Notes under the pieces: generated by a model
Seen by the model: only the letters and a program-made list of their open reading frames with translations
Database searches by the model: none
Told to the model about the DNA's origin: nothing
Shown here: positions 1,309-21,838 of the stretch, piece by piece
Position numbering within the stretch: the stretch's first letter is position 1
How the letters are laid out: each line of letters begins with the position of its first letter
Origin: Candidatus Binatia bacterium
GTDB taxonomy: Bacteria; Desulfobacterota; Binatia; HRBIN30
Direction of reading: 5' to 3'
DNA: 64,000 bases
Assembly: GCA_038245295.1 (NCBI GenBank)
Contig: JBBRSP010000010.1
Coordinates: 128,001-192,000, forward strand
Made by a program: the position numbers and the translations under genes

Positions 1309-3891
1309 TCACGGCGCGCCGCCCGCCTGGACTTGGAGGCGCTGCCGCACTCGTTCGCGGACCTCGGTGTAGATGTCGACGCCGATGTCGTCAGCGACCT
1401 CGAGGGTCACCGCGATCGCGTAGGGCACAACGCCCTCAAGGCCGGGCGCGTCCTCCCGGCAGCTAACGCGCACGACGATGTCCTCGCCGTCGATGAAGGC
1501 TGCAGCAGACTCGCCTTCGAACGTGTCGTGCTGCAGCGTTCCCCGTTGCGCGGTCTGCCAGTCGGGCCCCACGCGGCTCACCTTCAACTTCGACTTTGGT
1601 GTCTCGAACCAGAGTTGTGCCTTGCGCCACTTGTGGCTCAGCGGATTGACGGGCGTAAACCAGGCGAGCGTCACCGTGAGTCGTCGCCAGCCACGTTTAC
1701 CGCTCAGCGACGGGGGCAGCGGGAATCGATGCTCTGCGCCTCCTTCCGCTGCAAGAGTTCCACCTCCAACGCCCGTCACGCGCGTCGGCGAGCACTCGGT
1801 GACGTCGTCGATCTCAAGGCGGCCGAATCCAAGTAGACGCGTTACCTGCTCCGTCCTCTTGTCCGCGTTGTCGATGGACTCGAAGTGACCGTGCAGCGCC
1901 TTCCCAAGATCGCCCCAACGAGCGCCGTGGGCGAGGAGCGTCTTGATGAGAACGGCATCGGGCACATCGGCAAGAGCCGCTGCGCCATCAACTTGCCGAA
2001 GCTCCGAGATCACCGGCGCCAAGAACGCGCCTACACGACTCAAGAGCGCCGCCGCGTTGCTGGTGCCTCGACTCTTCGCCGTGTGCGTGAGGTCACCGGC
2101 AACTGCCCCAGGTGCAGCGATCTTCACACCAGGCGACGCCGGAACCCGCACCGGGCGAAGGCGCGTCTCTTGATTCAGCACAGGGCGGTCGAACTGAAGG
2201 CGGCCGCCCTGCACGAGGAGGTCGGGCTTGATCGAGCGGCGGTAGCCCAGACCATGTGCGTTGAGCGGGCTGGGATAGCCTGCAGGGACCGGATCGAGAC
2301 GCGTCGCTGTCGGCACGTCGGTGTCGTCATCCTCGTGCAGCGCGCCGACCGTGAGCGCGTTCATCGCCTCTGCCGGCGAGAGCGCACGGCGGTTCCGGGT
2401 GTCAGCGACAACAGACTGCAGGATGACGGCCGTGAGGTCTTGCTGCGCGAGCGCCTGCAATTCCGACCAGGGCTTGCCCGTGTCCACGTCGTGCATGTGG
2501 TTGCCGGCGCTGACGACGAAGAGAACGCCGTGGGTCCAGGACAACCAGTCGAGCAGGCGTGCGAGCGGGCTCAGCGTCCCAGTGAACGGCCTGTCGAGCA
2601 CGCAGATCGAGAAGTTCACGAGGGCGACATCAGGAGCGGCCGGAGCCGTGTTGCCGTCGACCTCGAATAGCCTCCGCACTGCTCGGTGCACGAGATCGAC
2701 GACGAGGGTTCCCTCTGGAACTAGCTCGTATGGCTCCTGACCTGTCCAGGCCGGAGGGAACACCGGCCGCATGATGGGGCGCACGTACAGGGGCTGTGGG
2801 ATAGGCGAGCAGTTGGGATCGTTGAGGTCGCCCCCGATGATGAGCGAAGCCATTCCCGTTCCGTGCGCGCGCGCATCGACCCGGTAGTCAGTCTCGAAGC
2901 TGTCGGGATCGTCGACGAGGAGTCGGTTGGCGAGCGCGTTGTGGTTCTGCAACGGAAGACCGTCGAGCAGTGCAACGCGCGCGGGGCCCGCAGCCTGCGG
3001 TCCCGCGTACACCGTCGTGGACGCAGCCTTCTCACCGGGCACGCGTACCGCCATCTGCCCGGCAGCGCGGAAGAACTGGATCTGCTCGCTCTGCACAAGC
3101 TGCACTTGGTTGCGGGTCTGCTCGTTGAGCACCTTTTGAACGGCGGCGATGGGAAGCCGCACGGCCAGGCCGTGGTAGTGGATGCCCGGCACGATGCCTT
3201 CGCTGAGCACCGTTCCACCGAGCTCTTGCACCCGCGCGCGAACCACCTGGGATGCCGCCTGCCGTCGTTGCGGGTTCGCTCGGAACCACAGCTCGATCTC
3301 GCAGTGGACGTGCTCCACGTTCTCCTGAACGCGCGTGGTCCAGTCCGAGAGCACGCCGGTTTCCTCAAGTCGGTCCTTCACACCCCACGGGCGAATGTCG
3401 CGCAGCAACTCGAAGGCGTCGCGCCACTTCGTGAGGCCGCGGTCGAACTTCGCTCCGCTCTGGAACCGCTGCCACAACGTTTGTAGCTGGCGGAAGGCGT
3501 CCTGGTTCGTGAAGACCATGTAGACGCGCCCGGTGTACGGGACGTGTGCGCCCTTCTTGTCGACGAAGAAGTCATCGTCGGATGGGATGTCCTGCTCGTC
3601 GTACTCGGACAGGAACTCGAAGCCGTCGATCTTGCTGACCGCCTTCACGAACTCCTCGACCGTGCCCGCAGTCTCGAGAACCAGCACGTCTTCGGGCACA
3701 ACACCGGTGGCTGCAGTCTGAAGCTGAACGCGCTTCGACTCGAACGCCTTCTCCAGCTCCTGAAGCCGTGGCCCCAAGCGCTCTTGCTGGCGCCCGGCGC
3801 CAAGCTTCGCGGGGCCTCCACCACCGCCGCCCTTCTTGCCTCGGGTCGCGGTGGTCGCCTCCGGTAGAAGCAGAAGTGGGCGTTCAGCCAT
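1309..3891 (-). CDS. S8 family subtilisin-like serine protease (IetS-like)
   Basis: Catalytic triad motifs ALLDG, HGTGMAS, GTSNAA; no signal peptide; start overlaps the AAA ATPase stop region. Confidence 0.9.
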   Translation of the reverse strand: MAERPLLLLPEATTATRGKKGGGGGGPAKLGAGRQQERLGPRLQELEKAFESKRVQLQTAATGVVPEDVLVLETAGTVEEFVKAVSKIDGFEFLSEYDEQDIPSDDDFFVDKKGAHVPYTGRVYMVFTNQDAFRQLQTLWQRFQSGAKFDRGLTKWRDAFELLRDIRPWGVKDRLEETGVLSDWTTRVQENVEHVHCEIELWFRANPQRRQAASQVVRARVQELGGTVLSEGIVPGIHYHGLAVRLPIAAVQKVLNEQTRNQVQLVQSEQIQFFRAAGQMAVRVPGEKAASTTVYAGPQAAGPARVALLDGLPLQNHNALANRLLVDDPDSFETDYRVDARAHGTGMASLIIGGDLNDPNCSPIPQPLYVRPIMRPVFPPAWTGQEPYELVPEGTLVVDLVHRAVRRLFEVDGNTAPAAPDVALVNFSICVLDRPFTGTLSPLARLLDWLSWTHGVLFVVSAGNHMHDVDTGKPWSELQALAQQDLTAVILQSVVADTRNRRALSPAEAMNALTVGALHEDDDTDVPTATRLDPVPAGYPSPLNAHGLGYRRSIKPDLLVQGGRLQFDRPVLNQETRLRPVRVPASPGVKIAAPGAVAGDLTHTAKSRGTSNAAALLSRVGAFLAPVISELRQVDGAAALADVPDAVLIKTLLAHGARWGDLGKALHGHFESIDNADKRTEQVTRLLGFGRLEIDDVTECSPTRVTGVGGGTLAAEGGAEHRFPLPPSLSGKRGWRRLTVTLAWFTPVNPLSHKWRKAQLWFETPKSKLKVSRVGPDWQTAQRGTLQHDTFEGESAAAFIDGEDIVVRVSCREDAPGLEGVVPYAIAVTLEVADDIGVDIYTEVRERVRQRLQVQAGGAP

Positions 3892-4882
3892 CGCGCTTCC
3901 TCATGGTCTCGGTCCTGGGCTTCACGCGCGCGTTCCACTGCTTGAGCCGCTGATTCACGATGGACCGCAGATCACCGTCGGGCAGCGCCAGGACATAGCG
4001 GCGCTGAACATCGAGCGCGAAGAGCTCGAGCTCGGCGAAGCTGATCGAGCCGAGGGTCTTCGCCAGGTTCGCGTGCGAATGTGCAAGCGAGAATCCCGCA
4101 CGCGCCTCGAACTGCTTGAGCCACTCGACGCGCTGTTCCTTCGTCGGCACGGGCAGCGGCAGTCGTACCTGGAAGCGACGCCACGCGGCACGGTCGAGGA
4201 GCTCGCCGTGGTTTGTCGCGGCCACAACGACCACGTGCGAGGGCAACTGGTCCACCTGCAGAAGCAGCGAGCTGACGACGCGCTTGATCTCGCCGGTCTC
4301 GTGAACGTCACCGCGCTCCTTACCGACGACGTCGAACTCGTCGAAGAACAGCACGCACCGCTCGGTGCGCACCTGGGCAAAAAGCTTTGCGAGCCGGACC
4401 GCCGTTTCGCCGAGATAGCTCCCGATGATGCTTTCGTAGCGAACGACGTAGAGAGGCACCGAAAGCTCGAAGGCCAGTGCCTCGGCGAGCGTGGTCTTCC
4501 CGTTGCCAGGTGGACCGCTGAGCAGGACGCGGTGGCGCGGCTCAAGGCCGTGCGACCGTAGCAGGTCCGCTCGCTGGTGTTCCTCCACCAGCTCGCTGCA
4601 GGCGTCTCGCACCACGGCCGGGAGCACGAGGCTCGCCAGGTTGCGGCGCGCCCGCACTTCGGCGAAGGCCGTACGGTCGCCGCCGTTTGACTCCGGCAGA
4701 GAGCGCGCCGGCCGCAGCGCGTTGCCGTTGAGGCGGAGGTGCGCGGCGAGCTGGTCGGCCAGCACGTTGTGCTGCTTCGCCTTCTCTTCGGCGATCAACG
4801 CCTCGAGGGTCTTGCGAAACAGCTCCTGGTTCCCCTCTGCTCCCGCCTTGACGATGTCGAGCAACAGATCAGCGCGAGCCAT
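3884..4882 (-). CDS. AAA+ ATPase (IetA-like partner of the S8 protease)
   Basis: Walker A GPPGNGKT, Walker B LFFDEFD, SRH AATNH..LDRAAWRRF; RBS GGAAGGAG before ATG 4882. Confidence 0.92.
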   Translation of the reverse strand: MARADLLLDIVKAGAEGNQELFRKTLEALIAEEKAKQHNVLADQLAAHLRLNGNALRPARSLPESNGGDRTAFAEVRARRNLASLVLPAVVRDACSELVEEHQRADLLRSHGLEPRHRVLLSGPPGNGKTTLAEALAFELSVPLYVVRYESIIGSYLGETAVRLAKLFAQVRTERCVLFFDEFDVVGKERGDVHETGEIKRVVSSLLLQVDQLPSHVVVVAATNHGELLDRAAWRRFQVRLPLPVPTKEQRVEWLKQFEARAGFSLAHSHANLAKTLGSISFAELELFALDVQRRYVLALPDGDLRSIVNQRLKQWNARVKPRTETMRKRDG

Positions 4883-4996: not shown

Positions 4997-7771
4997 TCAT
5001 GCGGTCCCCCCACTCACCTCGACCCAGCCGATCAGCTTCGCGGCGTAGCTCCCGCCCTCGGGAACGATCTCGCGGTGCTGCAGCTCGCGCTCGAGCATCG
5101 GCTCGACCTTCTCGTGGAGGAGCGCCGTGCGCGCTGACGCCGTCGTTCCGTTGACGTGGCCGGGACGCGTGAAGACGCCCGCACCGAGCCGTTCGAGGCG
5201 CGAATTGCGCTTGCCGTCGTCGCTCACGCCGAGGGGCAACACGGCGGCGCGGTGCTCGCCGGAGGGGCCGCGCGTCTCGACGAGCCACCACGTGAGCACG
5301 CCCGGACCTTCCTCACCCGAGACCGCGAGGCCGATGCCCTCCGGCGACACGGTCTGCCACCGCTTGATGGCCTCTTGCACGAGCGGATGATCGAGGCCGA
5401 GCAGATCGAGGTCGGCCCGCGCGCGGGCAGCATCGCGGTCGAGCGTGAAGCGGCAGACCACCTTCTGCTCGGCGTCCTTCACGACGTATGTGCCGTCCTC
5501 CTGCGCATCGACGCGGCGGCCATCGGCGGTGATGGATGCGCGCAGGAACTCCAGCACGCGCTCAAGCCCCGGCCTCACGTTGGCGAAGGGCTTGTAGTCG
5601 TCGAGCGAGAAGCCATCGAGATCCTGGAACAGCTCGAAGACCACCTTGCGCGCCTCGGAGGCGTTGGAGAGCGCCGCTTCGAGCTCCTCCTTCGTGCGAC
5701 GCAATTCGGGGTCACCGAGCGCTTCGCGATAGAGCTTGTCATACGTAAGACGCTCGGAGAGCTGGCCAAGCACCTGGCTGCGCAGGTCCTCGGCGACGTT
5801 CCCGTCCTCGTCGACCTTGCCGAGGGTCTTCGCAATCTCCTGCAGCTTCTCGTCGAGCAGCAGGAAGATCCTGCCCTCGATCGTGTCGGACAGGACGAGG
5901 TTGTAAACCTGCGCGGTATGTTTCTGGCCGTACCGATGGATGCGCCCGATGCGCTGCTCCATGTCCATCGGGTTCCACGGGAGGTCGAAGTTGAAGAGGA
6001 TGCGCGCGAATTGCAGGTTGATGCCTTCGCGTCCCGCTGCCGTGCAGACAAGCACGCGCGGACCGTCGGCCTTCCTGAACTTCCGCTCGGCGGCGAGCTT
6101 CGCCCCGTGGTCTCCACCGCGCAGGACGACGACGCCCTGGCCCGGGTATGCCTTCTCGATCTCGTGACCGAGCAGGTCGACGGTGCCGAGGTAGGTCGCG
6201 AAGATGACGACCTTCTCGGTCGGGTCCTGCTCCCACAGTGCGCCGAGTCCGCGCAGCAACTTGTCAACCTTCGTCTCGCGACGCTCGGGGAACACGCGGA
6301 GCAGCTCGCGGATGCGCAGGCGCTCCTCCGGCAGCGCAAGCTTCACAGCCATCACGGCCATGTCCTCGCCGCCGGTCGCTGCGAGCTCGCCAGCGCCGGC
6401 GTCCGACGCGAGCTCCAGCTCCTCCTCGTTTAGCTTCTTGAGGAGTTTTACGCGAAGGTCGGCGAGGATCGCATCGACCTGTCCGCGTCCCACCGAGTCG
6501 CGGGTCACCTCGAACTCGTCGTGGATCAGCTCGCGGGCCTCGGCGAGGAGCCGCTCGCGCGCGTCAATGTCAAGCTCCTCGTCCTTGAGGATGGCCTCGT
6601 GGAGCGTGAGCATCAGGATGCGTCGCCGAAGCGTCCGCCGAACGGCGGCAAAGCTCGACGCGGCGATCTTCTGGAAGATCGTCATCACGAAGCCGAGCGC
6701 GCGGCCTTGATTACCCTGGCGTTGAGCGAGCGCGAAGCCGTCCTCAAGGTACTCCTTGAGCGCCGCGTAGAAGGTGCGCTCCTGCTCGACCATCGTGAAC
6801 GACTCGGTGTGGACCCAGCGGCGAGCGAAGAGCGGTGAGCCATCAGGACGGCAGGCGTCGGCCTTGGTGCGACGGAACACCACCGAGTTCAGGCGGTGCC
6901 GATTGTCGACCATGTCCTCTGGACTCTTGAACAGGGTCGGGTTTAGGAGTTGCAGGAGCATCCAAAACCGAAAGTGGTCGCCTTGGTGTGGCGTGGCCGA
7001 GAGCAGCACGAGATCGCGGGAGTGCCCCTTGAGCGCCTCGGCTAGCTTGTAGTTCTCCGTCTTCGTAACCTTCCTGCCGTTACGGGAGGCTGTCAGGTGA
7101 TGCGCTTCGTCGAACACGACGAGGTCCCATTGCGGGGCTTCGAGCAGGCGCTTGATGCGGGCGGGGCGCTTGAGCGTGTCGATGCTCGCGATGAGCCTGT
7201 CGTGCTTCATGAAGGCGTTGGACTTGCGGTCGGTGACGTCCCCCTCGCTGCCAAATACCTCGAAGTCGAGGCGGAAGACCTCGTTCATCTCGCGGTGCCA
7301 GTTGTTCACGAGGCCTGCTGGGACGACCATCAGCGCGCGGTTCAGCTCGCCACGGCTCGCCAGCTCGCGAAGGAGCAACGCGGCCTCGATGGTCTTGCCG
7401 AGGCCGACCTCATCGGCGACGAGGTAGCGGCGGGGCGAGGCTGTTGCGATGCGATGGGTCAGCACCACCTGGTGCGGCAGGAGGTCGATCGGCGCCGCCG
7501 TCAGCGCAGCCGCGCTCTCCATGAGGGGCAGCGCGTGCGCCTCGTACTCGAGCCACGCCTCGCGCCGCCGGTCGTCGCTACCTGCGACCGAGCTGACGAC
7601 GCGGTCGGTGCGCGAGAGGAAGGGCTGGAGCGCTGTGACGGCGACGAGCCGCTCGCCGCCCGCGAAGAACGCTCGCACGTAGCCGTTGCGCTCGGAGTCG
7701 ACGACAACGCCCTCGCCGTGCTCGGCGTGGCTGACGCGCTGCCCAGGTTTGAACGCAGCGACTTCGCTCAT
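4997..7771 (-). CDS. SNF2/SF2 helicase-like ATPase
   Basis: ADEVGLGKT, DEAHH, LLSATP, EGINLQ, QRIGRIHRYG motifs; no obvious C-terminal nuclease motif. Confidence 0.92.
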   Translation of the reverse strand: MSEVAAFKPGQRVSHAEHGEGVVVDSERNGYVRAFFAGGERLVAVTALQPFLSRTDRVVSSVAGSDDRRREAWLEYEAHALPLMESAAALTAAPIDLLPHQVVLTHRIATASPRRYLVADEVGLGKTIEAALLLRELASRGELNRALMVVPAGLVNNWHREMNEVFRLDFEVFGSEGDVTDRKSNAFMKHDRLIASIDTLKRPARIKRLLEAPQWDLVVFDEAHHLTASRNGRKVTKTENYKLAEALKGHSRDLVLLSATPHQGDHFRFWMLLQLLNPTLFKSPEDMVDNRHRLNSVVFRRTKADACRPDGSPLFARRWVHTESFTMVEQERTFYAALKEYLEDGFALAQRQGNQGRALGFVMTIFQKIAASSFAAVRRTLRRRILMLTLHEAILKDEELDIDARERLLAEARELIHDEFEVTRDSVGRGQVDAILADLRVKLLKKLNEEELELASDAGAGELAATGGEDMAVMAVKLALPEERLRIRELLRVFPERRETKVDKLLRGLGALWEQDPTEKVVIFATYLGTVDLLGHEIEKAYPGQGVVVLRGGDHGAKLAAERKFRKADGPRVLVCTAAGREGINLQFARILFNFDLPWNPMDMEQRIGRIHRYGQKHTAQVYNLVLSDTIEGRIFLLLDEKLQEIAKTLGKVDEDGNVAEDLRSQVLGQLSERLTYDKLYREALGDPELRRTKEELEAALSNASEARKVVFELFQDLDGFSLDDYKPFANVRPGLERVLEFLRASITADGRRVDAQEDGTYVVKDAEQKVVCRFTLDRDAARARADLDLLGLDHPLVQEAIKRWQTVSPEGIGLAVSGEEGPGVLTWWLVETRGPSGEHRAAVLPLGVSDDGKRNSRLERLGAGVFTRPGHVNGTTASARTALLHEKVEPMLERELQHREIVPEGGSYAAKLIGWVEVSGGTA

Positions 7772-7781
7772 GCCAGTCCCT

Positions 7782-8816
7782 TCATAGTGCCGCCGAGGCC
7801 ATCCGTACCTCGAGCGCCCTCTTCATCTGCGAAGTCAGTGTTCGGTCTCTGTCGAAGAACGTGGGCTTGCGGATCTGGGAGCCGTCATAGCGGAGCAGCA
7901 CATCGTCGAGACCGTTCGAGCGATTGCACTCCCTGAAGAACTTGACAGCATCGTTGTCGATCGCGATCTTCAGCGTGGGACGAATCACGTACACCTTGGC
8001 GTCGAACAGCCGGTGGTGATTCGGACAGAGGGACACGCCGTTCCAGACTTCGTCAACCCCTTGCGGCTCGCAAGCGGGAATGATGTGTGCTCCCTCCACG
8101 ATGTTGAGCTGCGCCGAGCAGACTGCGCACGCGAAGTTGTATTGCGCGCCCACGAGCGGGGCGAACCGATGGTCGCGCGCGATGCGCTCAAGCACGATGC
8201 GTCGTCGAATCGTCTCGGCAGGAGTCGTCGGCATGGCGGTCGCCGGAACGACGGAGATGTTGGGTGTGCTTTCGAGAAGAAATGCCTCACGTTCGTCGCC
8301 TTGCAGCCCGCTGGCGTCGGCCTGGTGAAACTGCCGCATCAGGTGCAGTAGGTTCCCCGACGTGCAGGCGACGCGGACCTCTTCATTTCCACCGCTCCCT
8401 CGCATCGTTCGCGGCGATGCAACGGCCCACCCAGTCCTTCTCGCCTCGCTCAGCAAGTTCTCCTGAACCTGCACGGCCTTGCTATACGAGAAGTCAGCGT
8501 GAAACCTCGCCTCCCAAGCCACGAAGACTCCGAAGTCCGGCGAGTACCCAAGCAGGAATGTCGGCACCGCATCCAACTTGAGATCGCCACGATCACCACG
8601 CGTCTGGCCGGGCAAGATGAGCTGAATCTTGAACTCGTCGGCGGGGCGATCGGACGACTCGACGTGCGTGACAGTCCACAAGTAGAAGCGCGCCGTGCCG
8701 AAGTCAGAGATCGTGGCGAGTGCGGGGCGCGTTTCGTCGCCAGTGCTGAACGTCGTTCCCACGGCCAAAGCTGCGGCAAGCTTCGCCTTCAAGACATGCT
8801 GCGGCAGCGCGGGCAT
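7782..8816 (-). CDS. HNH endonuclease with an N-terminal domain of unknown (possibly modification-reading) function
   Basis: CAVC...GAHIIP...NGVSLCPNHHRLFD (HNH_2-type); ATG 8816 overlaps the upstream TAA (TAATG). Confidence 0.85.
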   Translation of the reverse strand: MPALPQHVLKAKLAAALAVGTTFSTGDETRPALATISDFGTARFYLWTVTHVESSDRPADEFKIQLILPGQTRGDRGDLKLDAVPTFLLGYSPDFGVFVAWEARFHADFSYSKAVQVQENLLSEARRTGWAVASPRTMRGSGGNEEVRVACTSGNLLHLMRQFHQADASGLQGDEREAFLLESTPNISVVPATAMPTTPAETIRRRIVLERIARDHRFAPLVGAQYNFACAVCSAQLNIVEGAHIIPACEPQGVDEVWNGVSLCPNHHRLFDAKVYVIRPTLKIAIDNDAVKFFRECNRSNGLDDVLLRYDGSQIRKPTFFDRDRTLTSQMKRALEVRMASAAL

Positions 8817-9337
8817 TAGGAAATCCTCGGATGATGGAGGCCAACGTAGGCTTCGCCGTCGAAGTCGGGGTTCTTTTCCTCGGAGACAAGAATGCGGCCT
8901 ACGTCGGCTTCGGCGCCGCCCCACAGGCACCGGCCCAGCGGCAAGCGTGCGCCATCCTTCGTCGCGCTGAACCGCCAGAAATACTCTTCGTCCGCAAGGT
9001 CCATGCCGATACGGGTGCGGCCCGATGCGAGCCAGAGGATGAGCGCGGCCTGCCCCTCGTAGTGCTCTTGGAAGCTTAACACCGCCGACTTCACGTCGTT
9101 CTCGAGCCATGAGACGGCGTCCTGCTCCGACAGTGAGTCGAGGCAGCCGTCGAGCCCGGCGACGACGAGGGCGTCGCCCTCGGAGCCAGGGAGGTCGTCG
9201 GGCCACGCCTTCCTCAACGCGAAGAAGTCGCGGATCGACACCACGGCAGTCGGTGCGATGACGGTGGTCAGAACACGCGGCTCCCACAGCAGCGAGAAGC
9301 CGCGACGCTTCCAGCGATCGCCCTGGACAGTGATCAT
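8816..9337 (-). CDS. hypothetical protein of the DUF499/PglZ/DUF1156 operon (173 aa, alpha/beta)
   Basis: Translationally coupled on both sides (ATGA at 9337-9334, TAATG at 8818-8814). Confidence 0.8.
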   Translation of the reverse strand: MITVQGDRWKRRGFSLLWEPRVLTTVIAPTAVVSIRDFFALRKAWPDDLPGSEGDALVVAGLDGCLDSLSEQDAVSWLENDVKSAVLSFQEHYEGQAALILWLASGRTRIGMDLADEEYFWRFSATKDGARLPLGRCLWGGAEADVGRILVSEEKNPDFDGEAYVGLHHPRIS

Positions 9338-12300
9338 GCCGCCCCCTGGTCTTCAAAGAAGGAGAGCGCCATCTGCTGCTGTTTGGGCTCCTGCTTCGCG
9401 ATGTAGGAGCGAAGAATTGTCTGGGCGCGCGACGCGGCATTGCGAACCTCCGACGTCGAGCCGCGCGTGGAGAACCATTCCAAGAGCGAACTGAGAGCGG
9501 GGTGACGCTTGAAGTTGCCGTTGGTGAGCGTCTCATTGGCGCTAATGCCGCTGTTCTCGAAGCACGCACCGATGAGGAACGCGGCCTGGTCGTAGTCGCT
9601 CGTCATGCCGCTCCGATGCTTGCGCTGCCACGTGCGCGCGACGTCGAGCGGCGACGTGACGAAGTAGGTCTTCTTTTCCTCGGAGCACCAGCCACGCACC
9701 TCAAAGTCAGACGGCGCGATGCCGGTGCCGCGCAGAAATTTCTGGATCTGGTCGCGCGGGATCTCCTTCACGCCGTCAAAGAGCCGAAGGAACTGTCGCG
9801 TGAACGGCTCTGCGTTGACCGGCGGCGGGTCCTTGATGCCTCCCGTTTCTTCATCGAGGAGCTGATTGATGCCGACGAGCGCTTCGAGCACCGTCATCGA
9901 GCGCCCCTCATTCACGAGCACCTTGCCGTAGTGCCGCGAGTAGTACTCGAGGGCCTTGCCGCGACGGATGACCTGAAGGTCGGCTTCGGGTAGACCGGCC
10001 TTCTGGTGGTGCTCAAGCATGCTCTTCAGGGCGCGCACGTCCTGCAGCACCTGGCGGCGCATCTTCGCCCAGCTCACCGGGGTCGGCTCCTCGAAGCGCT
10101 TCCGGCAAACATGGATGATGTCGTACTCGATCTGCTTCGAGCCAAACTCGCCTTCGCCCTTCGATTCGTCGCTGCGAATCGGGTACGTCGCTTCGAGATA
10201 GAATCCGGCGTCGAAGAGGCTCTCGAGAACGGCCACCCACGGCGCGTCTTCGCTATGATGGAACGTGAATGCGAGGATGCCGGACGGGCGAAGAAGCCGG
10301 GACGCTTCCCGCCAGCTCTCGGTCAGTACGCGCTTGTAGTGCTCGTCCGCGTCGTCAGGGTGCTGTGCCGGGTTCGAGATGGCTTCGAGCGTCTTCGGTG
10401 TGTACTCGCTGGAGAAAAACTCGGAGTACTTCGAGCGGAGAACCTTCCGAAGCCAGACGTAGAAGAAGTCAGCGAGCTCGGCGTAGAAGAGCAAGCCGCC
10501 GAAGGGAGGATCGGTGATGACAAGGTCAAAGCTACCGGTCTCCCATGAGTCGATATCGCTGGCAGAGCCACACTTCAGAGTCGAAAGCGTCGAGGGCGGA
10601 TCTCCAATGTATCCCTTCTCGCTCTTGCCCGTGAGGTCGGCAGCGATGGCGGGCGACTGCTGGGCGAGCCACTCGTTGCTGAGCACGTCCCAGGGGCGCT
10701 CGCGCCAATCGAGCGTCTCAGTGAGCGCCTCAGTACACGACAGCCAGTTGCCACGTCCCATCGCTCCGAACACGCTGTTCTCAACCACCACGTGTTTCGG
10801 GTGGTAGTTGTTGTTGCTCATGTGCGGTTCAAGCTTGTCCGCCTGGATGTTCCAAAAGGCAAACATGTTCTGGTTTCGCAGGTACTGCTGGAACGAACCG
10901 AGAACGAGTTCACGGGTTTCCCAACAGTGCTTCTCTCCCCCAACGCTCGTGATCGCTTTCAGCAGCAGCGCGTGAACCAGAAGCTGCCGCGCGTTGAACA
11001 TGTCGGCCCAGCGGAGGTAGCCGTGTTGCGGCAGCGGCTGCCGCTGATGGGTCATGTGACCGAAAGGGATTTCACTCTCGGGCCAGAAACCCTTGAGGTC
11101 TGCTTCACGGCGAGCCTCCCATTCGCGACAGGCTGCCTCGAACGGCGCGGGATCAATGGACGCATTGAAGAAACGACCGCTGTATGCAGCCCCTGTCTTC
11201 TTGAGGCCGGCACTGAAGCACTGCATGACGAGCGGCGCGACCGGGGCCGATTTCCCGGATGCGTTGGTCGCGACAACAATGCGCTGAACCGCGCCGCAAG
11301 CGCCGCATGCGAAGTGCCCGTCCTTCGGGACCGTCCCGCCCTTACTGGGTTGAACCGCGACTCCATCGACGGTGACACTGTCGGGGAGCGTCCCTCGCAG
11401 CTCGACGACAACTGCATCCTTCGAGCGGGCGTCCAACCAACGGCAGGTGTCTGCAGCGCTGTCAGTGACGCTTCCACCCAAGAGACCGGCGGGACTAGTG
11501 CCCGCAATTCCGGCCAGCCAGCGGGGGTGAGCCATCAGCGAAAGGCGAACCTTCTTCTTCACCGCCTTCCCGAGGTTCGGGAACGACTCCTTCGCTCCGC
11601 ACGACGGGCACGTGACGCTGCTGGTCCTCACATCGAGCGCGCAGAACGGCTTTTCATCGTCGGCGACAACGAGCTTGGCGTCAGGCGCCATGCGGGCTTC
11701 GGAGTCCTCAATGTCGTAGGACGTCTTGCACGCCTTGCACGTGTGCTCCCATGCCTTCACGGTGAGTTCTTTCAGAGCGATGACCGGCGAGGTCATTGCG
11801 GGTGTGCGATGCCCGCAACCAGTCATTGCGCAAGGAATGTGCTTGCCCCAGAAGACGTAGATGAGCTCGGGACCCTCGTATCTGTACGTCTTCCGCTCCT
11901 CTGGCTTGAGCGCTAGCGGGTCGAAGTCGGCGCCCATGGCCTTGTTGTCCGCGATGCGCGTCCACGTCCCGCGCTCTCCGTGCGGACCGTTACACGCGTA
12001 GAACGGCATGAGCTGCGGCTTTAGCTCGGCCTCGATGTCGGCGAGCAGCGCTTCGACCTTGGCCTTCTTCACGTCGGCCAGTTCGGTCTTCACGACGAAC
12101 CACGCCACCGGGTTCAAGTCGTTGCCGAACATCTGCATGCCGAGGCGACTGCCCTCGACGACGGTGGTGCCGCCGCCCATGAAGATGTCGGCGACCTTGA
12201 CGTTGGCGAACGAGCGCTTCTTCTGGTGGTTCGCGTAGTAGACGTCCCACACGGCCTTCGCGGCCTGCGACGTGTCCTCGGGCGCCTTCATCGACGCCGA

Positions 12301-12564
12301 GAGCAGCAGCGAGCGGAACACGCTCGATCTGCGTCGCGCCCACCACTTCGACATTTGGTAGATGGGCTTGCCCGCGTTGCCCTCGATGGTGGCGACCTGG
12401 TTCACGGGGAGGATCGGGAAGTCGACCTCGAGGCAGGTCTTCGGTCGGTTCGGGTCGCTGAAGTCGACCGTCTCGACCTGCACGGCCTTGCCCGCACCAA
12501 CGGCGTCGGCGACCGCCTTCGCCACGCGGGCAGCCTTCGTTCCACTCGTTGCTGCTTTGGCCAT
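9334..12564 (-). CDS. DUF1156-type DNA amino-methyltransferase with Zn ribbons
   Basis: KWWARR N-terminal motif, motif I DIFMGGGTT, motif IV TDPPF, several CxxC pairs; start MAKAAT at 12564 just after the PglZ-like stop. Confidence 0.9.
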   Translation of the reverse strand: MAKAATSGTKAARVAKAVADAVGAGKAVQVETVDFSDPNRPKTCLEVDFPILPVNQVATIEGNAGKPIYQMSKWWARRRSSVFRSLLLSASMKAPEDTSQAAKAVWDVYYANHQKKRSFANVKVADIFMGGGTTVVEGSRLGMQMFGNDLNPVAWFVVKTELADVKKAKVEALLADIEAELKPQLMPFYACNGPHGERGTWTRIADNKAMGADFDPLALKPEERKTYRYEGPELIYVFWGKHIPCAMTGCGHRTPAMTSPVIALKELTVKAWEHTCKACKTSYDIEDSEARMAPDAKLVVADDEKPFCALDVRTSSVTCPSCGAKESFPNLGKAVKKKVRLSLMAHPRWLAGIAGTSPAGLLGGSVTDSAADTCRWLDARSKDAVVVELRGTLPDSVTVDGVAVQPSKGGTVPKDGHFACGACGAVQRIVVATNASGKSAPVAPLVMQCFSAGLKKTGAAYSGRFFNASIDPAPFEAACREWEARREADLKGFWPESEIPFGHMTHQRQPLPQHGYLRWADMFNARQLLVHALLLKAITSVGGEKHCWETRELVLGSFQQYLRNQNMFAFWNIQADKLEPHMSNNNYHPKHVVVENSVFGAMGRGNWLSCTEALTETLDWRERPWDVLSNEWLAQQSPAIAADLTGKSEKGYIGDPPSTLSTLKCGSASDIDSWETGSFDLVITDPPFGGLLFYAELADFFYVWLRKVLRSKYSEFFSSEYTPKTLEAISNPAQHPDDADEHYKRVLTESWREASRLLRPSGILAFTFHHSEDAPWVAVLESLFDAGFYLEATYPIRSDESKGEGEFGSKQIEYDIIHVCRKRFEEPTPVSWAKMRRQVLQDVRALKSMLEHHQKAGLPEADLQVIRRGKALEYYSRHYGKVLVNEGRSMTVLEALVGINQLLDEETGGIKDPPPVNAEPFTRQFLRLFDGVKEIPRDQIQKFLRGTGIAPSDFEVRGWCSEEKKTYFVTSPLDVARTWQRKHRSGMTSDYDQAAFLIGACFENSGISANETLTNGNFKRHPALSSLLEWFSTRGSTSEVRNAASRAQTILRSYIAKQEPKQQQMALSFFEDQGAA

Positions 12565-12566
12565 GT

Positions 12567-13586
12567 CTATGCTCCACCCGTCCGCGAAAGCTCGATGAAC
12601 GGCACCGCTACTTCGAGGAGCGAGAGGCCACCGTGCGTGAGAGTTGGATAGCCGCCCTGGCTCTTCCACTTGCGACGGCCCAGCGCGAACGTCGCGTCGG
12701 CGTGGGCGGTCTTCAGCGGCAGATCGAGCGGCGGCACCCACGCGCCAGGGGCGGGCTGCTCGAGGTCGGCGACCTTCGCCCAGCGGCCACTGGCAAAGCG
12801 GTCCTTCAGGTACGAGGACTGCGCGGGGTCGATGGTGTCGGGGAAGTGTCCACTCGCCGCGTAGCCGTGGTCGGCGGTGATGACGAGGCGCCGTCCCGTT
12901 GTAAGCGTGTGGACCAGGGTCCAGAAGGCGTCGCTCGAGAGCTGCTCCGCGGCTTCCTTCGCCAGCGCCGCGAGGCCATGCCCCGGCGAGCGCAGCTCGT
13001 GGACGCGCTCATCGAGCCAGTCGTGCCAGAGCAGCCAATCGTGGGTGGCGTTGATCTGCGCCGCGCAGTCTTGCCACGGGAGGTTGGTCGAGTCGGTCGT
13101 CGCCCCGGTGAGGCGGCCCTTGCCGGCGCCGAGGTTGTTCTGGAGCGAGCTCCTGCGTGTGAAGCCGAGCGCCTCGGCAAACGGCGTCGTGTCGGCGGGT
13201 AGCTCGGCGCCCGTCGCGCGGGCCTGGTGGACCGTGTAGCCACGCTCCTTCACGCCCTTGAGCAGCCAGGGCACTTCGCGCAGCGAGAGCGCGTCGAGGA
13301 TGAGGACCGCGCGACCAGCACCACGCTCGGCCCACCACGACGCGAGCACGTCGGCGGTGCGCGGGACCACCGTCTCGTACGACTTCCAGAGGTCCCAGCC
13401 CGCCGTCGCGAGGAAAAGATCGGCCGCCCCGAGCTCGGCGTCACGCTTGGTTACCTCCGATGGGGCCTTGTCCTGTGCGAGCGGTGCCGAGCACGTGTTC
13501 CACGCGTGCTCGAACAGGCTCGCCCAGGCGGTGTCGGACGAGGCGGACTGAAGCTGCCGCAGCAACGTGAGCGGCAGCGGCATCAC
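12567..13586 (-). CDS. PglZ-like alkaline-phosphatase-superfamily protein
   Basis: LILDALS, ITADHGY and THGGLSLLEVAVP match the PglZ metal-binding motifs; start could also be ATG 13583. Confidence 0.8.
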   Translation of the reverse strand: MMPLPLTLLRQLQSASSDTAWASLFEHAWNTCSAPLAQDKAPSEVTKRDAELGAADLFLATAGWDLWKSYETVVPRTADVLASWWAERGAGRAVLILDALSLREVPWLLKGVKERGYTVHQARATGAELPADTTPFAEALGFTRRSSLQNNLGAGKGRLTGATTDSTNLPWQDCAAQINATHDWLLWHDWLDERVHELRSPGHGLAALAKEAAEQLSSDAFWTLVHTLTTGRRLVITADHGYAASGHFPDTIDPAQSSYLKDRFASGRWAKVADLEQPAPGAWVPPLDLPLKTAHADATFALGRRKWKSQGGYPTLTHGGLSLLEVAVPFIELSRTGGA

Positions 13587-16321
13587 TTCTCCTCCTTGTT
13601 CAGCGTCAGCTCATAGGTGATGCCGTCGGGCAGCTTCTTGAGCAGCTCGTTGAGCTGCGCGCCCGTGAGGTTCGCGACCTTGAGCTGGACGTCCTGAACC
13701 TGCGTGCCCGTCGTGATGCCCCAGCTCTCGACCTTACCGAGCAGATTGAGCGCGGAGGTGGCGCCCGCCGTGCTCAACTGTTTCAGCGTCGTGGTCGGGC
13801 CGTTGCCGAAGATGCTGCCGCCAGGCGCCGTCGAGATCGGGGGCTGCGCGCTGTCACCTCCAGCTTCACCGCCCGTGATGGGGGGCTGAGGGTTCAGGGG
13901 GAGCTGACCGGTGCCACCATTGATCGGCGGGACCACAGGTGGCTGCGGCGGCACCACACCCTCCGCGTGCGGCACGGCTTGTGGGAGGAGCACGTAGGTC
14001 TCGTCGAGGTGCTTGCCCGTTCCGAGCTTGCTACACATGCGCTTCCACGCGGTCTCCTCATTCTCGCCCGCGCGCACTTGCAGGTACTCCATACCACGCA
14101 GGTTGATGGCGATCTCGCCGCGGGCGCACGTCCTAAGGAGCTTCTCCTTCATCGCGATCTCGCCGAGCCAGGGGATGCAGTCCTCGCCACCCGGGCGCGG
14201 TTCCTGCAACTCGCGCAACAGCTTGCCGACCGACTCGTTCTGTTGGGCAGCCGCGAGGACGAGCGCGTCGAAGTCCTCCGAGACGAACAGGTTCTTCGCG
14301 ACGAGCTCGTCGACCTTCTCGGGGACCTTCGCGCCTTCTTCCTTGTGACCCTCGACGTGGAAGGTGCATTGCGACGGGGTCTGGAAGTTCCAGGTCGCGA
14401 GGATGGCGAAGCGATCGAAGCGGCGCTTGAGGATGTCGCGCAGCTCGCGCTCGTACTTTTGGTGGAGCTTCTTGAACTCGGGGTTCTGTGCCTTCCACTT
14501 GTCGGCGAGTAGCACCGCGCGCGCGAGCACGAGGAGGTCGCGGTCGTAGAATAGGTTCTCGCCGCCGTCGCGCGGCAGCAGGAAGCGCACCGCGTTGCGA
14601 CGCGTCTGCAACCGCTCCTTGAGCCAGGTGCCGAGGCGCGCTTCGACCTTGTCCGGCGGCTCGGGCAATACGAGCAACGGGATGCGTTCGTCCCACTGCG
14701 GGGGAAGGTCGGCCTCGTCGACGCCTGCCCACGGATCGGCCATCCAATTCGCGCCGAGCACCACGACACGGAATGCCTTGGCGACGCTCTCGGCGCCACC
14801 GAGGACGTAGCGCACCTCGCGCGCGAGCTGCAGACGGTCGTTGAGCTTGTCCGGCGTGTCCCCGAACAGCTTGTCGTTACGCGCGTTGGCGATGAGCTTC
14901 GCCTGCGGATTTTCCTCCTCGCGGAAGACGAGGCGCGAGCCCTCCTGGTGGATGTTGAAACTGTTCTCGACGATGGTCGACAGCTCGGCCGAGAAGAAGT
15001 TGTCGTCGACCGCCTTGGCCCGCGTTATGTCGACGTGCAGCTCGGCGGGATCGGCGCCAGCGTTCTTGATCGCCAGCGAGCGGAGCCAGAGCGCGCCCAC
15101 GATGTCCGCAAGGTGTGGAACGGTCTGCGCCGGGTCCTTCACCGCGTCGAGCACAGCGCTCAAGTTACGTTGCGCCTTCTCACGCAGGTTCGCGTGGTGC
15201 TGGTTTGACACGGAGTCGAGCAGCGCAACGATGCCGCTCTTGTCGTCGTCGAGGCGGAAGTCGGCTGCCGTGATGATCGGCGAGCTGGCGTTCCGTGACT
15301 TGAAGACGTCGGCGAGGATGCGGATCAGGTCACGGGTCTCCTGCGCCTGCGTCGCGACGAGCACTTGGTCCTCGAGCAACGTCATCAGATGCGGCGCGAA
15401 CGGCCAAGCCTCGACGAAGTCGGAGCGGACGCGTTGGTGCTCGGCGGGCGCGACGTCGGCGAGGCGCAGGTGCTCCGAGACGTGCCTCTCGATGACCGCC
15501 TCGATCTGCGCTGGCTGCACGTTCATCCGGTTATCGAACAGGCGGTGCAGGAGGAGGCGAAGGCGGTCGCGGCGCGCGTTCGGCCCCTTGAAATCGATTT
15601 GGCGTGGGTTCACGCGGTGAATCTGTTGGTACGCCTCGGTCTCGCCGTTGCGGACCGAGACGACGAGTACGAGCAACTCAGGGTGCTCCTTGGCGATCTC
15701 CGAGAGGAGCTGGATGAAGTTGAAAGCCCACGACTTCCACGGGTACTGCTTCGTGTTCGTCAGGCCGTCGTACCAGGTCTGGAACTCGTCGAGGACGAGC
15801 GCGGTCGGCGTGTGAGTGAACAGCTCCACGAGAAGCTTGTCGCCGGGGATGTCGGTCCGCTTGTCGCCCTGCGCCTCCCACTTGCCCTTGATGTACGCGC
15901 CGTGCGGGTGGCGCTCGAGGATAAGGTCCCACAGGAACTTGTAGTTCTGGCGGTGGAGGCTCTCGCTGATGACGAGTGTCTTCGGCCGCAGCCTGATCCC
16001 GTCCAGCGTCGGCTGACCCAGACGAATGCCCCACGCCTTCAGCCAATCCAAAGTGACCTCTGGGCTGTCGAAGCCGTGGTACAGGGCGGCGAGCAAATGC
16101 GACTTACCCTGGCCGCGCTCGCCGATGAGTACGACAGGCTGGCCGTGTCCCGGGCCGATCGCCTCCATCGCTGAGATCACGTCGGCCGTTGGGTACGTAA
16201 TACCGAGAAACTCGGAAGCGCCAATCTGCGTCGCCCCTGTATTGTTCTCATTCGCCAGCTCGATCGCCGTCCCCTTGAGACGACGGCCGTGGAATTCCTC
16301 GCGCAGTGTCAGTCCCAGCAT
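13583..16321 (-). CDS. DUF499-family AAA+ ATPase (BrxC/PglY-related)
   Basis: Walker A GERGQGKSH, Walker B LVLDEF, WPFAP and QETRDLIRILA motifs; first gene of the operon. Confidence 0.85.
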   Translation of the reverse strand: MLGLTLREEFHGRRLKGTAIELANENNTGATQIGASEFLGITYPTADVISAMEAIGPGHGQPVVLIGERGQGKSHLLAALYHGFDSPEVTLDWLKAWGIRLGQPTLDGIRLRPKTLVISESLHRQNYKFLWDLILERHPHGAYIKGKWEAQGDKRTDIPGDKLLVELFTHTPTALVLDEFQTWYDGLTNTKQYPWKSWAFNFIQLLSEIAKEHPELLVLVVSVRNGETEAYQQIHRVNPRQIDFKGPNARRDRLRLLLHRLFDNRMNVQPAQIEAVIERHVSEHLRLADVAPAEHQRVRSDFVEAWPFAPHLMTLLEDQVLVATQAQETRDLIRILADVFKSRNASSPIITAADFRLDDDKSGIVALLDSVSNQHHANLREKAQRNLSAVLDAVKDPAQTVPHLADIVGALWLRSLAIKNAGADPAELHVDITRAKAVDDNFFSAELSTIVENSFNIHQEGSRLVFREEENPQAKLIANARNDKLFGDTPDKLNDRLQLAREVRYVLGGAESVAKAFRVVVLGANWMADPWAGVDEADLPPQWDERIPLLVLPEPPDKVEARLGTWLKERLQTRRNAVRFLLPRDGGENLFYDRDLLVLARAVLLADKWKAQNPEFKKLHQKYERELRDILKRRFDRFAILATWNFQTPSQCTFHVEGHKEEGAKVPEKVDELVAKNLFVSEDFDALVLAAAQQNESVGKLLRELQEPRPGGEDCIPWLGEIAMKEKLLRTCARGEIAINLRGMEYLQVRAGENEETAWKRMCSKLGTGKHLDETYVLLPQAVPHAEGVVPPQPPVVPPINGGTGQLPLNPQPPITGGEAGGDSAQPPISTAPGGSIFGNGPTTTLKQLSTAGATSALNLLGKVESWGITTGTQVQDVQLKVANLTGAQLNELLKKLPDGITYELTLNKEEK

Positions 16322-16631: not shown

Positions 16632-16699
16632 GGAATTGGGGACGTGGAGGTTATTCGGACGATTCACAATCGTCCGAATAACCTCTACATCCCTTTTCC
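16632..16699. repeat. long hairpin (GGAATTGGGGACG family); may also terminate the gene at 16726-17382
   Basis: Perfect 18-bp arms 16647-16664 / 16668-16685 with a 3-nt loop; imperfect extension to GGAA...TTCC. Confidence 0.75.
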
Positions 16700-18711: not shown

Positions 18712-19614
18712 TTACCCGACGGCCTCGTCCAACGTGCGCGCTGTCAGAGCGCGTGCAGCGATGTTCTCGAGCTGTTCGATCGAGGAAGCCCGGATGCTCG
18801 CTTCGATCGCAGCGGGAACCTGACCGAATCGCAGGATCAGGAGCTTTAGCACCAAGGCGGCGCGGCCCTTGGCCTCACCGCGAACTTCACCTCGGGCCTC
18901 ACCTTCGGCTACCCCTTCGGCTCGACCCTGGGCCAACCAGCGCCGTGCATGCTCGCTTTGAGCCTCGTATTTAGTGGGGTCCATACTTTGCAGAGCCTCC
19001 GTTGCCGCTGCGCTCAACGACGCGTGTACCAAGTCAAAATACAACTTCGCGCGCTCATCGTCGAGTCCAATGCTGGCCGTCATCGCCGTTGCGGCAATCT
19101 GCGCCGCCTTGGCCGTGTCGGCGTCCTTGCCGTGCGCCATAGCCGACAACACCGCCAACTCAGGATCGTTGATGGCGCGTTGTCGGTCGGTGATCTCGGG
19201 CACGCCCGACGGCCCCAACACCAGCGGCACAAAGTGATTGCCGCCGCCGAGGTCAATGGGACGCGACGCCCAGCGTGCGACGCGATCGCTGACCGTCACC
19301 ACCAGAAGCACCACCTTGCAGCGAAAACGCGCGCGCAGTCCGGCAACGTACAGCGGCCACGAGAAACGCTTCGCCTTGCTCGGCTGCAGTTGGACCTCGA
19401 CGATAATCCCCAACACCGGTTTGCCATGGCTCAGCAACACCACCAGATCGGCACGATACTCGGCGGCCTGCAGGTTGGTGAAGTCGGCCGACTCGATGCG
19501 CACCTCGCTGTACTGCGGCAACACTTCGCACAGCGCCTCGCGCAGCAGCTCGGGCGCCAGGGCCGGTCGGTTGCGGAAAAGATACAGCAGAGCCTCGTGT
19601 TGCGGCGACGGCAT
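18712..19614 (-). CDS. Rpn/PD-(D/E)XK-like protein with a C-terminal DUF4351-like domain
   Basis: YRADLVV...IIVEVQL core, G(R/E)AEG repeats, LKLLILRFG tail. Confidence 0.8.
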   Translation of the reverse strand: MPSPQHEALLYLFRNRPALAPELLREALCEVLPQYSEVRIESADFTNLQAAEYRADLVVLLSHGKPVLGIIVEVQLQPSKAKRFSWPLYVAGLRARFRCKVVLLVVTVSDRVARWASRPIDLGGGNHFVPLVLGPSGVPEITDRQRAINDPELAVLSAMAHGKDADTAKAAQIAATAMTASIGLDDERAKLYFDLVHASLSAAATEALQSMDPTKYEAQSEHARRWLAQGRAEGVAEGEARGEVRGEAKGRAALVLKLLILRFGQVPAAIEASIRASSIEQLENIAARALTARTLDEAVG

Positions 19615-21559: not shown

Positions 21560-21838
21560 TCCGAAAGCCTGGCTGTCCCCTCCGTGCAGCAACACCGACG
21601 GCACCCGTGCTGCATGGAGGGCGACACCCCTTCGCCAAGGCTTCGTGCCTCAAAAAAGAGAACCGAATGTTACACAACGTCGCCCCATATCCCGACCAAT
21701 CCACTCCAACAGGAGCGTCTCCCGCCTGCGCTGGAGCTGCGGCGGGCAAGCGAGCCGCCCGGTTATGCCGACCGGGCGGTTTCTCCACCTCCTGCGGCGC
21801 TTGGCTTCCGATTCCGAATCGCGGTAGGATCGCCGGTG

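What the first reader, a model, noticed from the sequence alone, without database searches (positions are those of the whole stretch)
4997..16321. BREX-related candidate defence operon: DUF499 ATPase, PglZ-like, DUF1156 methylase, small ORF, HNH, SNF2
Seen: six co-directional genes with overlapping or near-touching starts and stops, intact ATPase, phosphatase, MTase, HNH and SF2 motifs. Known: DUF499 + DUF1156 + SNF2, usually with DUF3780, forms a 'restriction-like' anti-phage system, while PglZ plus a BrxC/PglY ATPase defines BREX. Here a compact stand-alone PglZ-like gene (339 aa) and a 173-aa unknown protein occupy the accessory slots, and no brxA, brxL, pglX or pglW gene is apparent. Inference: a hybrid between BREX and the restriction-like system that marks self DNA by methylation. 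Similar gene sets may already have been noted computationally, so novelty of the core needs checking.
Basis: partly seen in the sequence, partly recalled or inferred. Interest (0 to 1): 0.85.

Follow-up and report, generated by a model that had tools for sequence, protein, structure and literature searches.

The report
Type-3 BREX-related operon with captured nuclease
This six-gene bacterial operon matches the Type-3 BREX-related defence systems described computationally in 2026; it likely marks the cell's own DNA by adenine methylation and likely cuts unmarked invading DNA, and this copy carries an extra nuclease gene whose relatives usually sit beside a different methylase.

Summary
The six genes are real, intact and tightly packed (minus strand, 16321-4997). 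The 'hybrid of BREX and the restriction-like system' is already described as the Type-3 BREX-related (BR) system (Rakesh & Krishnan 2026, PMC12839542): DUF499 ATPase, DUF1156 adenine methylase, nuclease-less SNF2, stand-alone PglZ and an inactive STAND protein. Five genes keep this order in 59 of 80 related loci. PglZ folds like PorX/BREX PglZ with all seven catalytic residues invariant. The 173-aa protein has no Walker A, a weak P-loop-like fold, and is predicted to dock on the ATPase nucleotide site as BrxB does (0.87; controls 0.00). The methylase target-recognition region is swapped among close relatives. The MTaX1-HNH gene is accessory (3 of 80). Its distant relatives mostly adjoin an M.PvuII-like methylase, which was not found in this genome, and near relatives occur only with this methylase allele; linkage could explain that. 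An IetAS pair follows. My searches found no experiment on Type-3 BR. Earlier scan notes report Type-3 BR variants in other genomes. Verdict: new member of a known kind.

The parts
13583..16321 (-). DUF499 AAA+ ATPase (BrxC/MtsA counterpart), 912 aa; Walker A G67-S74, Walker B D178/E179, H82 and R330 invariant
   Evidence: Pfam DUF499 E 1.4e-6, 26.8 bits over cut-off 23; invariant columns in 56 sequences; MtsA uses H82 for ATP stacking and R336 as sensor 2; the equivalence is inferred from position
12567..13586 (-). Stand-alone PglZ phosphodiesterase/nuclease domain, 339 aa; D98, T133, D192, H196, D239, H240, H318
   Evidence: Invariant in 80 of 80 aligned sequences; model pLDDT 92.9; Foldseek top hits PorX E 3.7e-11 and BREX PglZ 9zn5_B E 9.2e-8; PorX residue set
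9334..12564 (-). DUF1156 alpha-class N6-adenine methyltransferase, 1076 aa; motif I at 128, inserted target-recognition region about 290-660 with eight conserved cysteines (two predicted 4-Cys zinc fingers), motif IV DPPF at 685
   Evidence: region swapped among close relatives
8816..9337 (-). 173-aa protein, likely the inactive STAND (BrxB-like) subunit; C-terminal R171 is a candidate arginine finger
   Evidence: No family hit; model pLDDT 91.8; weak P-loop NTPase fold matches, Z up to 5.1; predicted complex with ATPase 1-480 scores 0.87 vs 0.00; R171 in 75 of 84, Walker A pattern in 0 of 84
7782..8816 (-). Accessory MTaX1-HNH endonuclease, 344 aa, inserted between the 173-aa gene and the helicase
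   Evidence: Pfam MTaX1 E 3.9e-20, HNH_2 E 5.2e-10; in 3 of 80 loci; DNA alignments show it cleanly missing in close relatives; family context
4997..7771 (-). SNF2-family helicase-like ATPase without a fused nuclease (BrxHII-like), 924 aa
   Evidence: PADLOC best hit BrxHI|BrxHII E 2.7e-98; no PLD or restriction-nuclease Pfam domain; 57 homologues 918-1053 aa
3884..4882 (-). ietA AAA ATPase of an adjacent, separate IetAS system
   Evidence: PADLOC IetA E 2e-145; ATG at 4882; follows the operon in 4 of 80 loci
1309..3891 (-). ietS S8 peptidase of the adjacent IetAS system
   Evidence: PADLOC IetS E 0; Pfam Peptidase_S8

Best explanation
This is a Type-3 BREX-related operon that likely works as an ATP-driven restriction-modification machine, with the methylase likely marking host DNA and PglZ as the likely nuclease. 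Shown here: the gene set, its conserved order, intact catalytic motifs, the PglZ fold and exchange of the methylase target-recognition region. Predicted: the 173-aa protein docks on the nucleotide-binding face of the DUF499 ATPase, with its C-terminal Arg171 in the interface, as BrxB does on BrxC. Inferred from MANTIS (Type-2 BR) and Type I BREX: (1) the ATPase loads the methylase on a short site chosen by its target-recognition region, and an adenine on one strand is methylated; (2) at unmethylated sites on phage or plasmid DNA the same complex engages the SNF2 motor; (3) because this helicase has no nuclease, the stand-alone PglZ nicks or cuts the DNA. The HNH gene is an optional extra nuclease, likely a backup layer. 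IetAS is a separate neighbour.
For: Published definition matches gene for gene. Five genes in order in 59 of 80 loci chosen by the 173-aa protein. Of 63 loci with enough flank, 55 hold all five, and 4 more have the ATPase about 6 kb upstream beyond an insert. PglZ fold and all seven metal/nucleophile residues; BREX PglZ is a metal-dependent DNase whose catalytic mutant loses about 3 logs of defence (passages). ATPase-173-aa complex 0.87, best of 3 controls 0.00; the mark was reached by 116 of 157 solved complexes and 2 of 215 mismatched pairs; runs agree in at least 87% of contacts, partner pLDDT at least 89; ATPase residues 69, 74, 179, 325-334 face partner residues 170-173. BrxB supplies an arginine to the BrxC ATP site. 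Methylase 290-660 is 47-55% identical in 9 close relatives whose methylase N-terminus is 87-97% identical, and 85-96% in 5 others; in MANTIS this region sets specificity. Patchy spread: the 173-aa gene was found in 1 of 40 relatives of the host, yet at 83-94% identity in Planctomycetota, Myxococcota, Rubrivivax and Micromonosporaceae records. Defence cargo fills the operon's gaps in relatives.
Against: No methylome or phage assay was found for this or any Type-3 BR system. The fold match of the 173-aa protein is weak: Foldseek gave nothing at E<=0.001, VIA Z at most 5.1, and BrxB itself was not listed; profile comparison with the ATPase was negative. The complex score may reflect likeness to the solved BrxC-BrxB complex, and the calibration holds only roughly for my alignments and ligands. 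BrxB binds PglZ through PglZ residues 1-98, a domain the stand-alone PglZ is described as lacking, so how PglZ is recruited is open. In Type I BREX, substantial defence survives loss of PglZ catalysis. The paper's supplement could not be read, so placement in its Type-3 ATPase clade is untested.
Confidence: 0.68

Rival explanations
1. Same Type-3 BR system, but PglZ is not the main DNA cutter. The ATPase-methylase-SNF2 complex would block invader replication at unmethylated sites, and PglZ would act as a scaffold or as a phosphodiesterase on oligonucleotides.
For: Closest structures are PorX proteins, which cleave cyclic and linear oligonucleotides. BREX with catalytically dead PglZ stays active though weaker. 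The stand-alone PglZ lacks the accessory domains of BREX PglZ.
Against: PglZ is present exactly in the BR type whose helicase lost its nuclease (here). In 68 of 77 loci the helicase directly follows the 173-aa gene with no nuclease between them. Catalytic residues are invariant.
Confidence: 0.17
2. In this allele the HNH protein is a coupled restriction enzyme. It is a Type II endonuclease that left its usual methylase and now depends on the BR methylase allele for self-protection.
For: 24 of the 40 best metagenome loci of the HNH family have an M.PvuII-like methylase within 600 nt, 2 more within 2 kb (several loci are near-duplicates). In L107 and L116 the pair sits among housekeeping genes. 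No full-length such methylase was found in this genome (96.6% complete) or in the 3 other genomes with HNH in the BR operon. All 4 related BR loci with this HNH carry the window's target-recognition allele; none of 9 with other alleles has it. The family also sits next to other BR-type methylases (L119, L123, L130).
Against: 2 loci with the same allele lack the HNH (L002, L011). The genes lie about 2 kb apart, so linkage and descent explain the association. The BR-linked HNH is only about 40-56% identical to the methylase-paired ones, so its target may differ. One-strand methylation, as in MANTIS, would protect poorly against a free-standing enzyme. CAGCTG depletion is shared by loci with and without the HNH.
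Confidence: 0.1
3. The operon is a mobile methylation cassette with no real defence role, or a decaying copy.
For: No functional data. 4 of 63 loci with enough flank are incomplete.
Against: All six frames and catalytic motifs are intact. Types 1 and 2 of the same family restrict phage. Specificity-region exchange and defence cargo are typical of immunity loci.
Confidence: 0.05

Closest known systems
Type-3 BREX-related (BR) system (Rakesh & Krishnan, NAR 2026, PMC12839542; computational)
   Same: DUF499 ATPase, DUF1156 N6-methylase with inserted target-recognition region and the two-zinc-finger variant, nuclease-less BrxHII-like helicase, stand-alone PglZ with intact site, small separate Walker-less protein.
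   Different: This copy has an MTaX1-HNH gene inside the core; the paper says Type-3 BR loci lack conserved stand-alone nucleases, lists HNH among auxiliary effectors generally, and does not mention MTaX1 in the main text. IetAS follows the operon. Whether this clade is among the paper's 569 taxa could not be seen.
MANTIS / Gao_RL 'restriction-like' system = Type-2 BR (bioRxiv 10.64898/2026.09.23.753747)
   Same: DUF499 ATPase, alpha-class methylase with central target-recognition domain, SF2 motor; source of the ATP-dependent loading and hemimethylation model.
   Different: No DUF3780/MtsB gene and no PLD nuclease on the helicase here; PglZ and the 173-aa protein are present instead.
Hma = Type-1 BR (PMC11232893)
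   Same: DUF499 + DUF1156 + Snf2 core; operon gaps take up other defence genes.
   Different: HmaA has a C-terminal PD-(D/E)xK nuclease, absent here; Hma has no PglZ or small ATPase-like subunit.
BREX Type I/III (BrxC-BrxB-PglZ core; PMC13326643, PMC12205998)
   Same: AAA+ ATPase, PglZ catalytic domain, a predicted BrxB-like docking of the small protein; helicase closest to BrxHII models.
   Different: No BrxA or BrxL match; ATPase hits DUF499; PglZ is 339 aa against about 640-870 aa.
Type II R-M pairs of an M.PvuII-like N4-cytosine methylase and an MTaX1-HNH gene (seen)
   Same: The accessory nuclease belongs to this HNH family.
   Different: The partner methylase was not found in this genome.

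Membership tests
Type-3 BR system | DUF499-family AAA+ ATPase with intact Walker motifs | tested here: met
   Pfam DUF499 26.8 bits over cut-off 23; Walker A/B invariant in 56 sequences. The C-terminal RRM domain was not examined.
Type-3 BR system | N6-methylase with N-terminal DUF1156 and a target-recognition insert inside the catalytic core (some with two 4-Cys fingers) | tested here: met
   DUF1156 E 0.0015, below cut-off; motif I at 128 and DPPF at 685 flank a variable region; 8 cysteines kept in 56-58 of 58 homologues
Type-3 BR system | Swi2/Snf2 helicase without a fused active nuclease, BrxHII-like | tested here: met
   Best PADLOC model BrxHI|BrxHII E 2.7e-98; no nuclease Pfam domain; weak RapA_C hit; lengths 918-1053 aa
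Type-3 BR system | N-terminal TUDOR domain on the helicase | not tested
Type-3 BR system | Stand-alone PglZ with conserved metal-binding site and PorX-like fold | tested here: met
Type-3 BR system | Separate small gene with eroded Walker motifs and no C-terminal helical bundle | tested here: met
   Walker A pattern in 0 of 84; model ends in strands with no helical lid; gene conserved in the core
Type-3 BR system | That small protein has the BrxB-like iSTAND fold with a three-stranded cap after strand 4 | tested here: inconclusive
   Best matches are P-loop NTPases at Z 4-5.1, rmsd 4-5 A over about 115-130 residues; BrxB not listed. A strand insert follows strand 98-102. Predicted docking on the ATPase supports the role.
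Type-3 BR system | No conserved stand-alone nuclease in the core | tested here: met
   HNH in 3 of 80 loci; helicase within 150 nt of the small gene in 68 of 77. This locus is one of the exceptions.
Type-3 BR system | ATPase falls in the Type-3 DUF499 clade of the published tree | not testable with these tools
   Supplementary data could not be read
MANTIS / Gao_RL (Type-2 BR) | DUF3780 (MtsB) gene | tested here: not met
   No DUF3780 hit on any operon protein or on 84 family members of the 173-aa protein. The genome-wide search was also blank but its control was silent.
MANTIS / Gao_RL (Type-2 BR) | HKD/PLD nuclease fused to the helicase | tested here: not met
   No PLD domain; NF042964 159 bits against cut-off 1100, matching only the helicase part
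Hma (Type-1 BR) | Helicase with C-terminal active PD-(D/E)xK nuclease | tested here: not met
   924 aa, no NOV_C/DUF3883 hit; HmaA model matches residues 84-653 only
Canonical BREX (Type III) | Multi-domain PglZ and a brxA gene | tested here: not met
   PglZ is 339 aa, NF033449 17 bits against cut-off 250; no BrxA match in operon or scanned flanks; genome-wide BrxA search blank with a silent control
IetAS (adjacent pair) | AAA ATPase gene followed by S8 peptidase gene | tested here: met
   PADLOC IetA E 2e-145 and IetS E 0; the NCBIfam equivalog cut-offs are not reached

The most novel reading that the evidence does not exclude
A Type II restriction endonuclease (MTaX1-HNH) has shed its usual M.PvuII-like methylase and been plugged into a Type-3 BR operon, where one particular target-recognition allele of the BR methylase now protects the host from it. 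The BR methylase would then license two nucleases, PglZ and HNH, and effectors could be moved between R-M and BREX-like systems by matching methylation sites.
Probability: 0.12. Interest if true: 0.62.

Novelty: new member of a known kind. Interest (0 to 1): 0.3.

Why it matters
The core is a published, still untested subtype. It is among the smallest natural systems in which PglZ is the only conserved nuclease candidate, so it makes a standing BREX question directly testable: is PglZ the cutting effector, and what does a BrxB-like subunit do? This locus adds three usable handles: a specific predicted interface and residue (Arg171), natural methylase specificity alleles in near-identical backbones, and natural versions with and without the HNH cassette. 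A specialist would not find the operon itself surprising.

Tried and rejected
Sequence searches gave no family for the 173-aa protein: Pfam, PADLOC and NCBIfam on 84 members, PDB profiles, ESM Atlas best score 0.77. hhalign against the ATPase was negative. BrxB did not appear in three fold searches, which does not exclude it. PDB sequence searches with the ATPase found only weak DnaA-like rows. 'ATPase-less variant' in L030, L034, L041, L044 was rejected: the ATPase lies about 6 kb upstream, beyond a dcm/GHKL/receiver insert. 'CAGCTG is the target of this allele or of the HNH' got no support. The operon has 0 sites against 4.6 expected, but the depletion is shared by close loci without the HNH and by 41 other loci (88 observed, 197.7 expected), other palindromes are depleted too, and the methylase-HNH pairs show none (6 vs 7.9). 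In the host genome CAGCTG is only 8th lowest of 64 palindromes. That M.PvuII acts on CAGCTG is recalled, not from a call. No sigma-70-type promoter was found. Binding between the 173-aa protein and PglZ was not modelled (one complex job only). The paper that first described MTaX1 was not held. Earlier scan notes hold no sequence look-alike of the 173-aa protein.
Full report
Observation. The six genes exist as described, on the minus strand from 16321 to 4997, with junction gaps of -4, +2, -4, -1 and +10 nt. The methylase most likely starts at the ATG at 12564 (1076 aa) and the HNH at 8816 (344 aa). Family scans give DUF499 above cut-off, a weak PglZ hit, DUF1156 below cut-off with N6_N4_Mtase, nothing for the 173-aa ORF, MTaX1 plus HNH_2, and an SNF2 helicase closest to BrxHI|BrxHII. 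An ietA-ietS pair follows 114 nt downstream in the same direction.

What is known. Rakesh and Krishnan (PMC12839542; I read the abstract, sections 12, 18, 21, 28, 29, 30, 33, the first parts of 25 and 35, and search passages) define three DUF499-centred BREX-related (BR) types. Type 3, in 569 taxa, has a nuclease-less BrxHII-like helicase, a stand-alone active PglZ and, in 82%, a separate inactive STAND protein; some of its methylases carry two 4-Cys fingers. The supplement could not be read; it may list this clade and the HNH association. The 'restriction-like' system is Type 2, now characterised as MANTIS (bioRxiv 10.64898/2026.09.23.753747, not peer-reviewed; abstract and sections 3, 5, 12, 17). 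There the ATPase loads the methylase, a 6-bp site is hemimethylated, and the target-recognition domain sets specificity. Three searches showed no experimental study of Type 3; most subscription journals are not in the library.

Conservation. A GTDB scan with the 173-aa family confirmed 142 relatives and kept the best 80. The order ATPase-PglZ-methylase-small gene-SNF2 holds in 59 of the 80. Of 63 loci with enough flank, 55 hold all five; 4 more have the ATPase beyond a 6-kb insert; 4 are incomplete. The HNH occurs in 3 of 80 and ietAS in 4 of 80. DNA similarity to close relatives begins near 16344 and ends near 4996, and the HNH cassette is cleanly missing in several of them. The small gene was found in 1 of 40 relatives of the host but at 83-94% identity in several phyla, which points to horizontal spread. 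Gaps in the operon of relatives hold PIN, HipA-HIRAN, GmrSD-HEPN, DUF5131, Eco57I-type and RmuC genes (24 ORFs scanned, 8 without a hit).

PglZ. D98, T133, D192, H196, D239, H240 and H318 are invariant in 80 sequences. Their order and spacing follow PorX D239, T272, D361, H365, D415, H416, H500 (PMC9757075 passages); the DHG and HGG pairs are aligned directly. The model (pLDDT 92.9) matches PorX first and BREX PglZ next. BREX PglZ nicks and cuts dsDNA; its catalytic mutant loses about 3 logs of defence but keeps some (PMC12205998 passages).

The 173-aa protein. It has 300 cluster representatives at E<=0.001 and no library family. The model (pLDDT 91.8) is alpha/beta without a C-terminal helical lid. 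Foldseek found nothing significant. VIA's best rows are nearly all P-loop NTPases, at Z up to 5.1, which is weak, and BrxB is not among them. No member has a Walker A pattern, and R171 is kept in 75 of 84. A complex prediction with ATPase residues 1-480, ATP and Mg scored 0.87, best of 3 controls 0.00; the mark was reached by 116 of 157 solved complexes and 2 of 215 mismatched pairs; runs agree in at least 87% of contacts and partner pLDDT is at least 89. The interface covers the ATPase's Walker A, Walker B and 325-334 region and the partner's C-terminal residues 170-173. This mirrors BrxB, which supplies an arginine to the BrxC ATP pocket (PMC13326643, abstract, first part of section 28 and passages). 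The pass may partly reflect that solved complex, and it shows likeness, not binding. Interface residues of the small protein are barely more conserved than the rest (0.49 vs 0.47; ATPase side 0.86 vs 0.76).

Methylase. Motif I and DPPF flank a variable region with eight conserved cysteines. Across residues 290-660, identity to the window is 85-96% in L001, L002, L004, L011 and L103, but 47-55% in nine other close loci whose methylase N-terminus is 87-97% identical. This is the pattern of specificity exchange; the site itself is unknown.

The HNH. It has 173 homologues. Of the 40 best metagenome loci examined (of 80 kept), 24 have an M.PvuII-like methylase within 600 nt and 2 more within 2 kb; 5 have a match to the BR methylase within 1.5 kb, some weak; 9 have neither, several being cut at a contig end (1boo E 3e-109). 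Some loci are near-duplicates. In L107 and L116 the pair lies among housekeeping genes, which suggests the HNH is normally that methylase's restriction partner (inference). No full-length such methylase was found here or in the three other genomes with the HNH inside the BR operon. The four related loci with this HNH share the window's target-recognition allele; two with that allele lack it, and none of nine with other alleles has it. Linkage explains this as well as coupling does, and a test for CAGCTG avoidance did not discriminate. MTaX1 is described as possibly discriminating modified DNA (PMC10853773, one passage).

Mechanism. Most likely the ATPase, with the small protein docked on it, loads the methylase and host sites are adenine-methylated; unmethylated invader sites engage the SNF2 motor and PglZ cuts. 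All functional steps are inferred from MANTIS and Type I BREX. How PglZ joins the complex is open, because the N-terminal domain that binds BrxB in BREX is not part of the stand-alone protein.

Verdict. A new member of the published Type-3 BR kind (membership about 0.9), with an accessory MTaX1-HNH and a neighbouring IetAS. Eight earlier scan notes describe Type-3 BR variants in other genomes; I had reached this reading from the paper before seeing them and did not check their claims. Interest 0.3.

Noticed in passing
window 1309-4882 (-): Complete IetAS pair directly downstream; DNA similarity continues into it in L010 and L011, and more distant copies follow the operon in L036 and L040, so BR plus IetAS recurs (4 of 80).
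   Followed up: partly
window 16644-16688: Hairpin with a 20-bp stem about 320 nt upstream of the ATPase and just after the 16726 stop; a second copy of this stretch (88% over 85 nt) lies on contig C16. Possibly a terminator or small repeated element.
   Followed up: partly
window 828-1232 (+): Short frame that reads by eye like the start of a Type I-style methylase gene and ends at the ietS 3' end; no Pfam hit; 113 nt resemble a stretch upstream of the operon in L006. Possibly a truncated remnant.
   Followed up: partly
L030, L034, L041, L044, between ATPase and pglZ: An insert of about 6 kb splits the operon; in L030 it encodes a C5 cytosine methylase, a GHKL/HEF_HK protein and a receiver-domain protein, with a second GHKL gene after the helicase.
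   Followed up: partly
L002 and L011, 10520-11330: A different two-gene insert (about 125 and 145 aa, no Pfam hit) fills the slot that holds the HNH here, and appears to run into the helicase start.
   Followed up: partly
L119:5103-9044, L123:612-2711, L130:1-2154: MTaX1-HNH homologues also sit beside Hma-type (Type-1 BR) methylases and in a distant Type-3-like locus, suggesting repeated recruitment into BR operons.
   Followed up: partly
L183:7399-9051 (G000:C10:126399-128051, -), at the window's left edge: 550-aa ORF whose start (IFWGAGAT) looks by eye like a Sir2-type motif (recalled); no Pfam or PADLOC hit.
   Followed up: partly
window 18712-19614 (-): 300-aa Rpn-like protein with a C-terminal DUF4351 domain.
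   Followed up: no
window 21584-25665 (+): ECF sigma factor, a probable anti-sigma and a VIT/vWA-type protein (by eye); tRNA-Val at 26391-26464. Not linked to the operon.
   Followed up: no
BR operons L001-L080: Several six-base palindromes (CCGCGG, GAGCTC, CAGCTG) are under-used relative to codon shuffles across these mobile operons, as expected for DNA passing through hosts with Type II restriction.
   Followed up: partly
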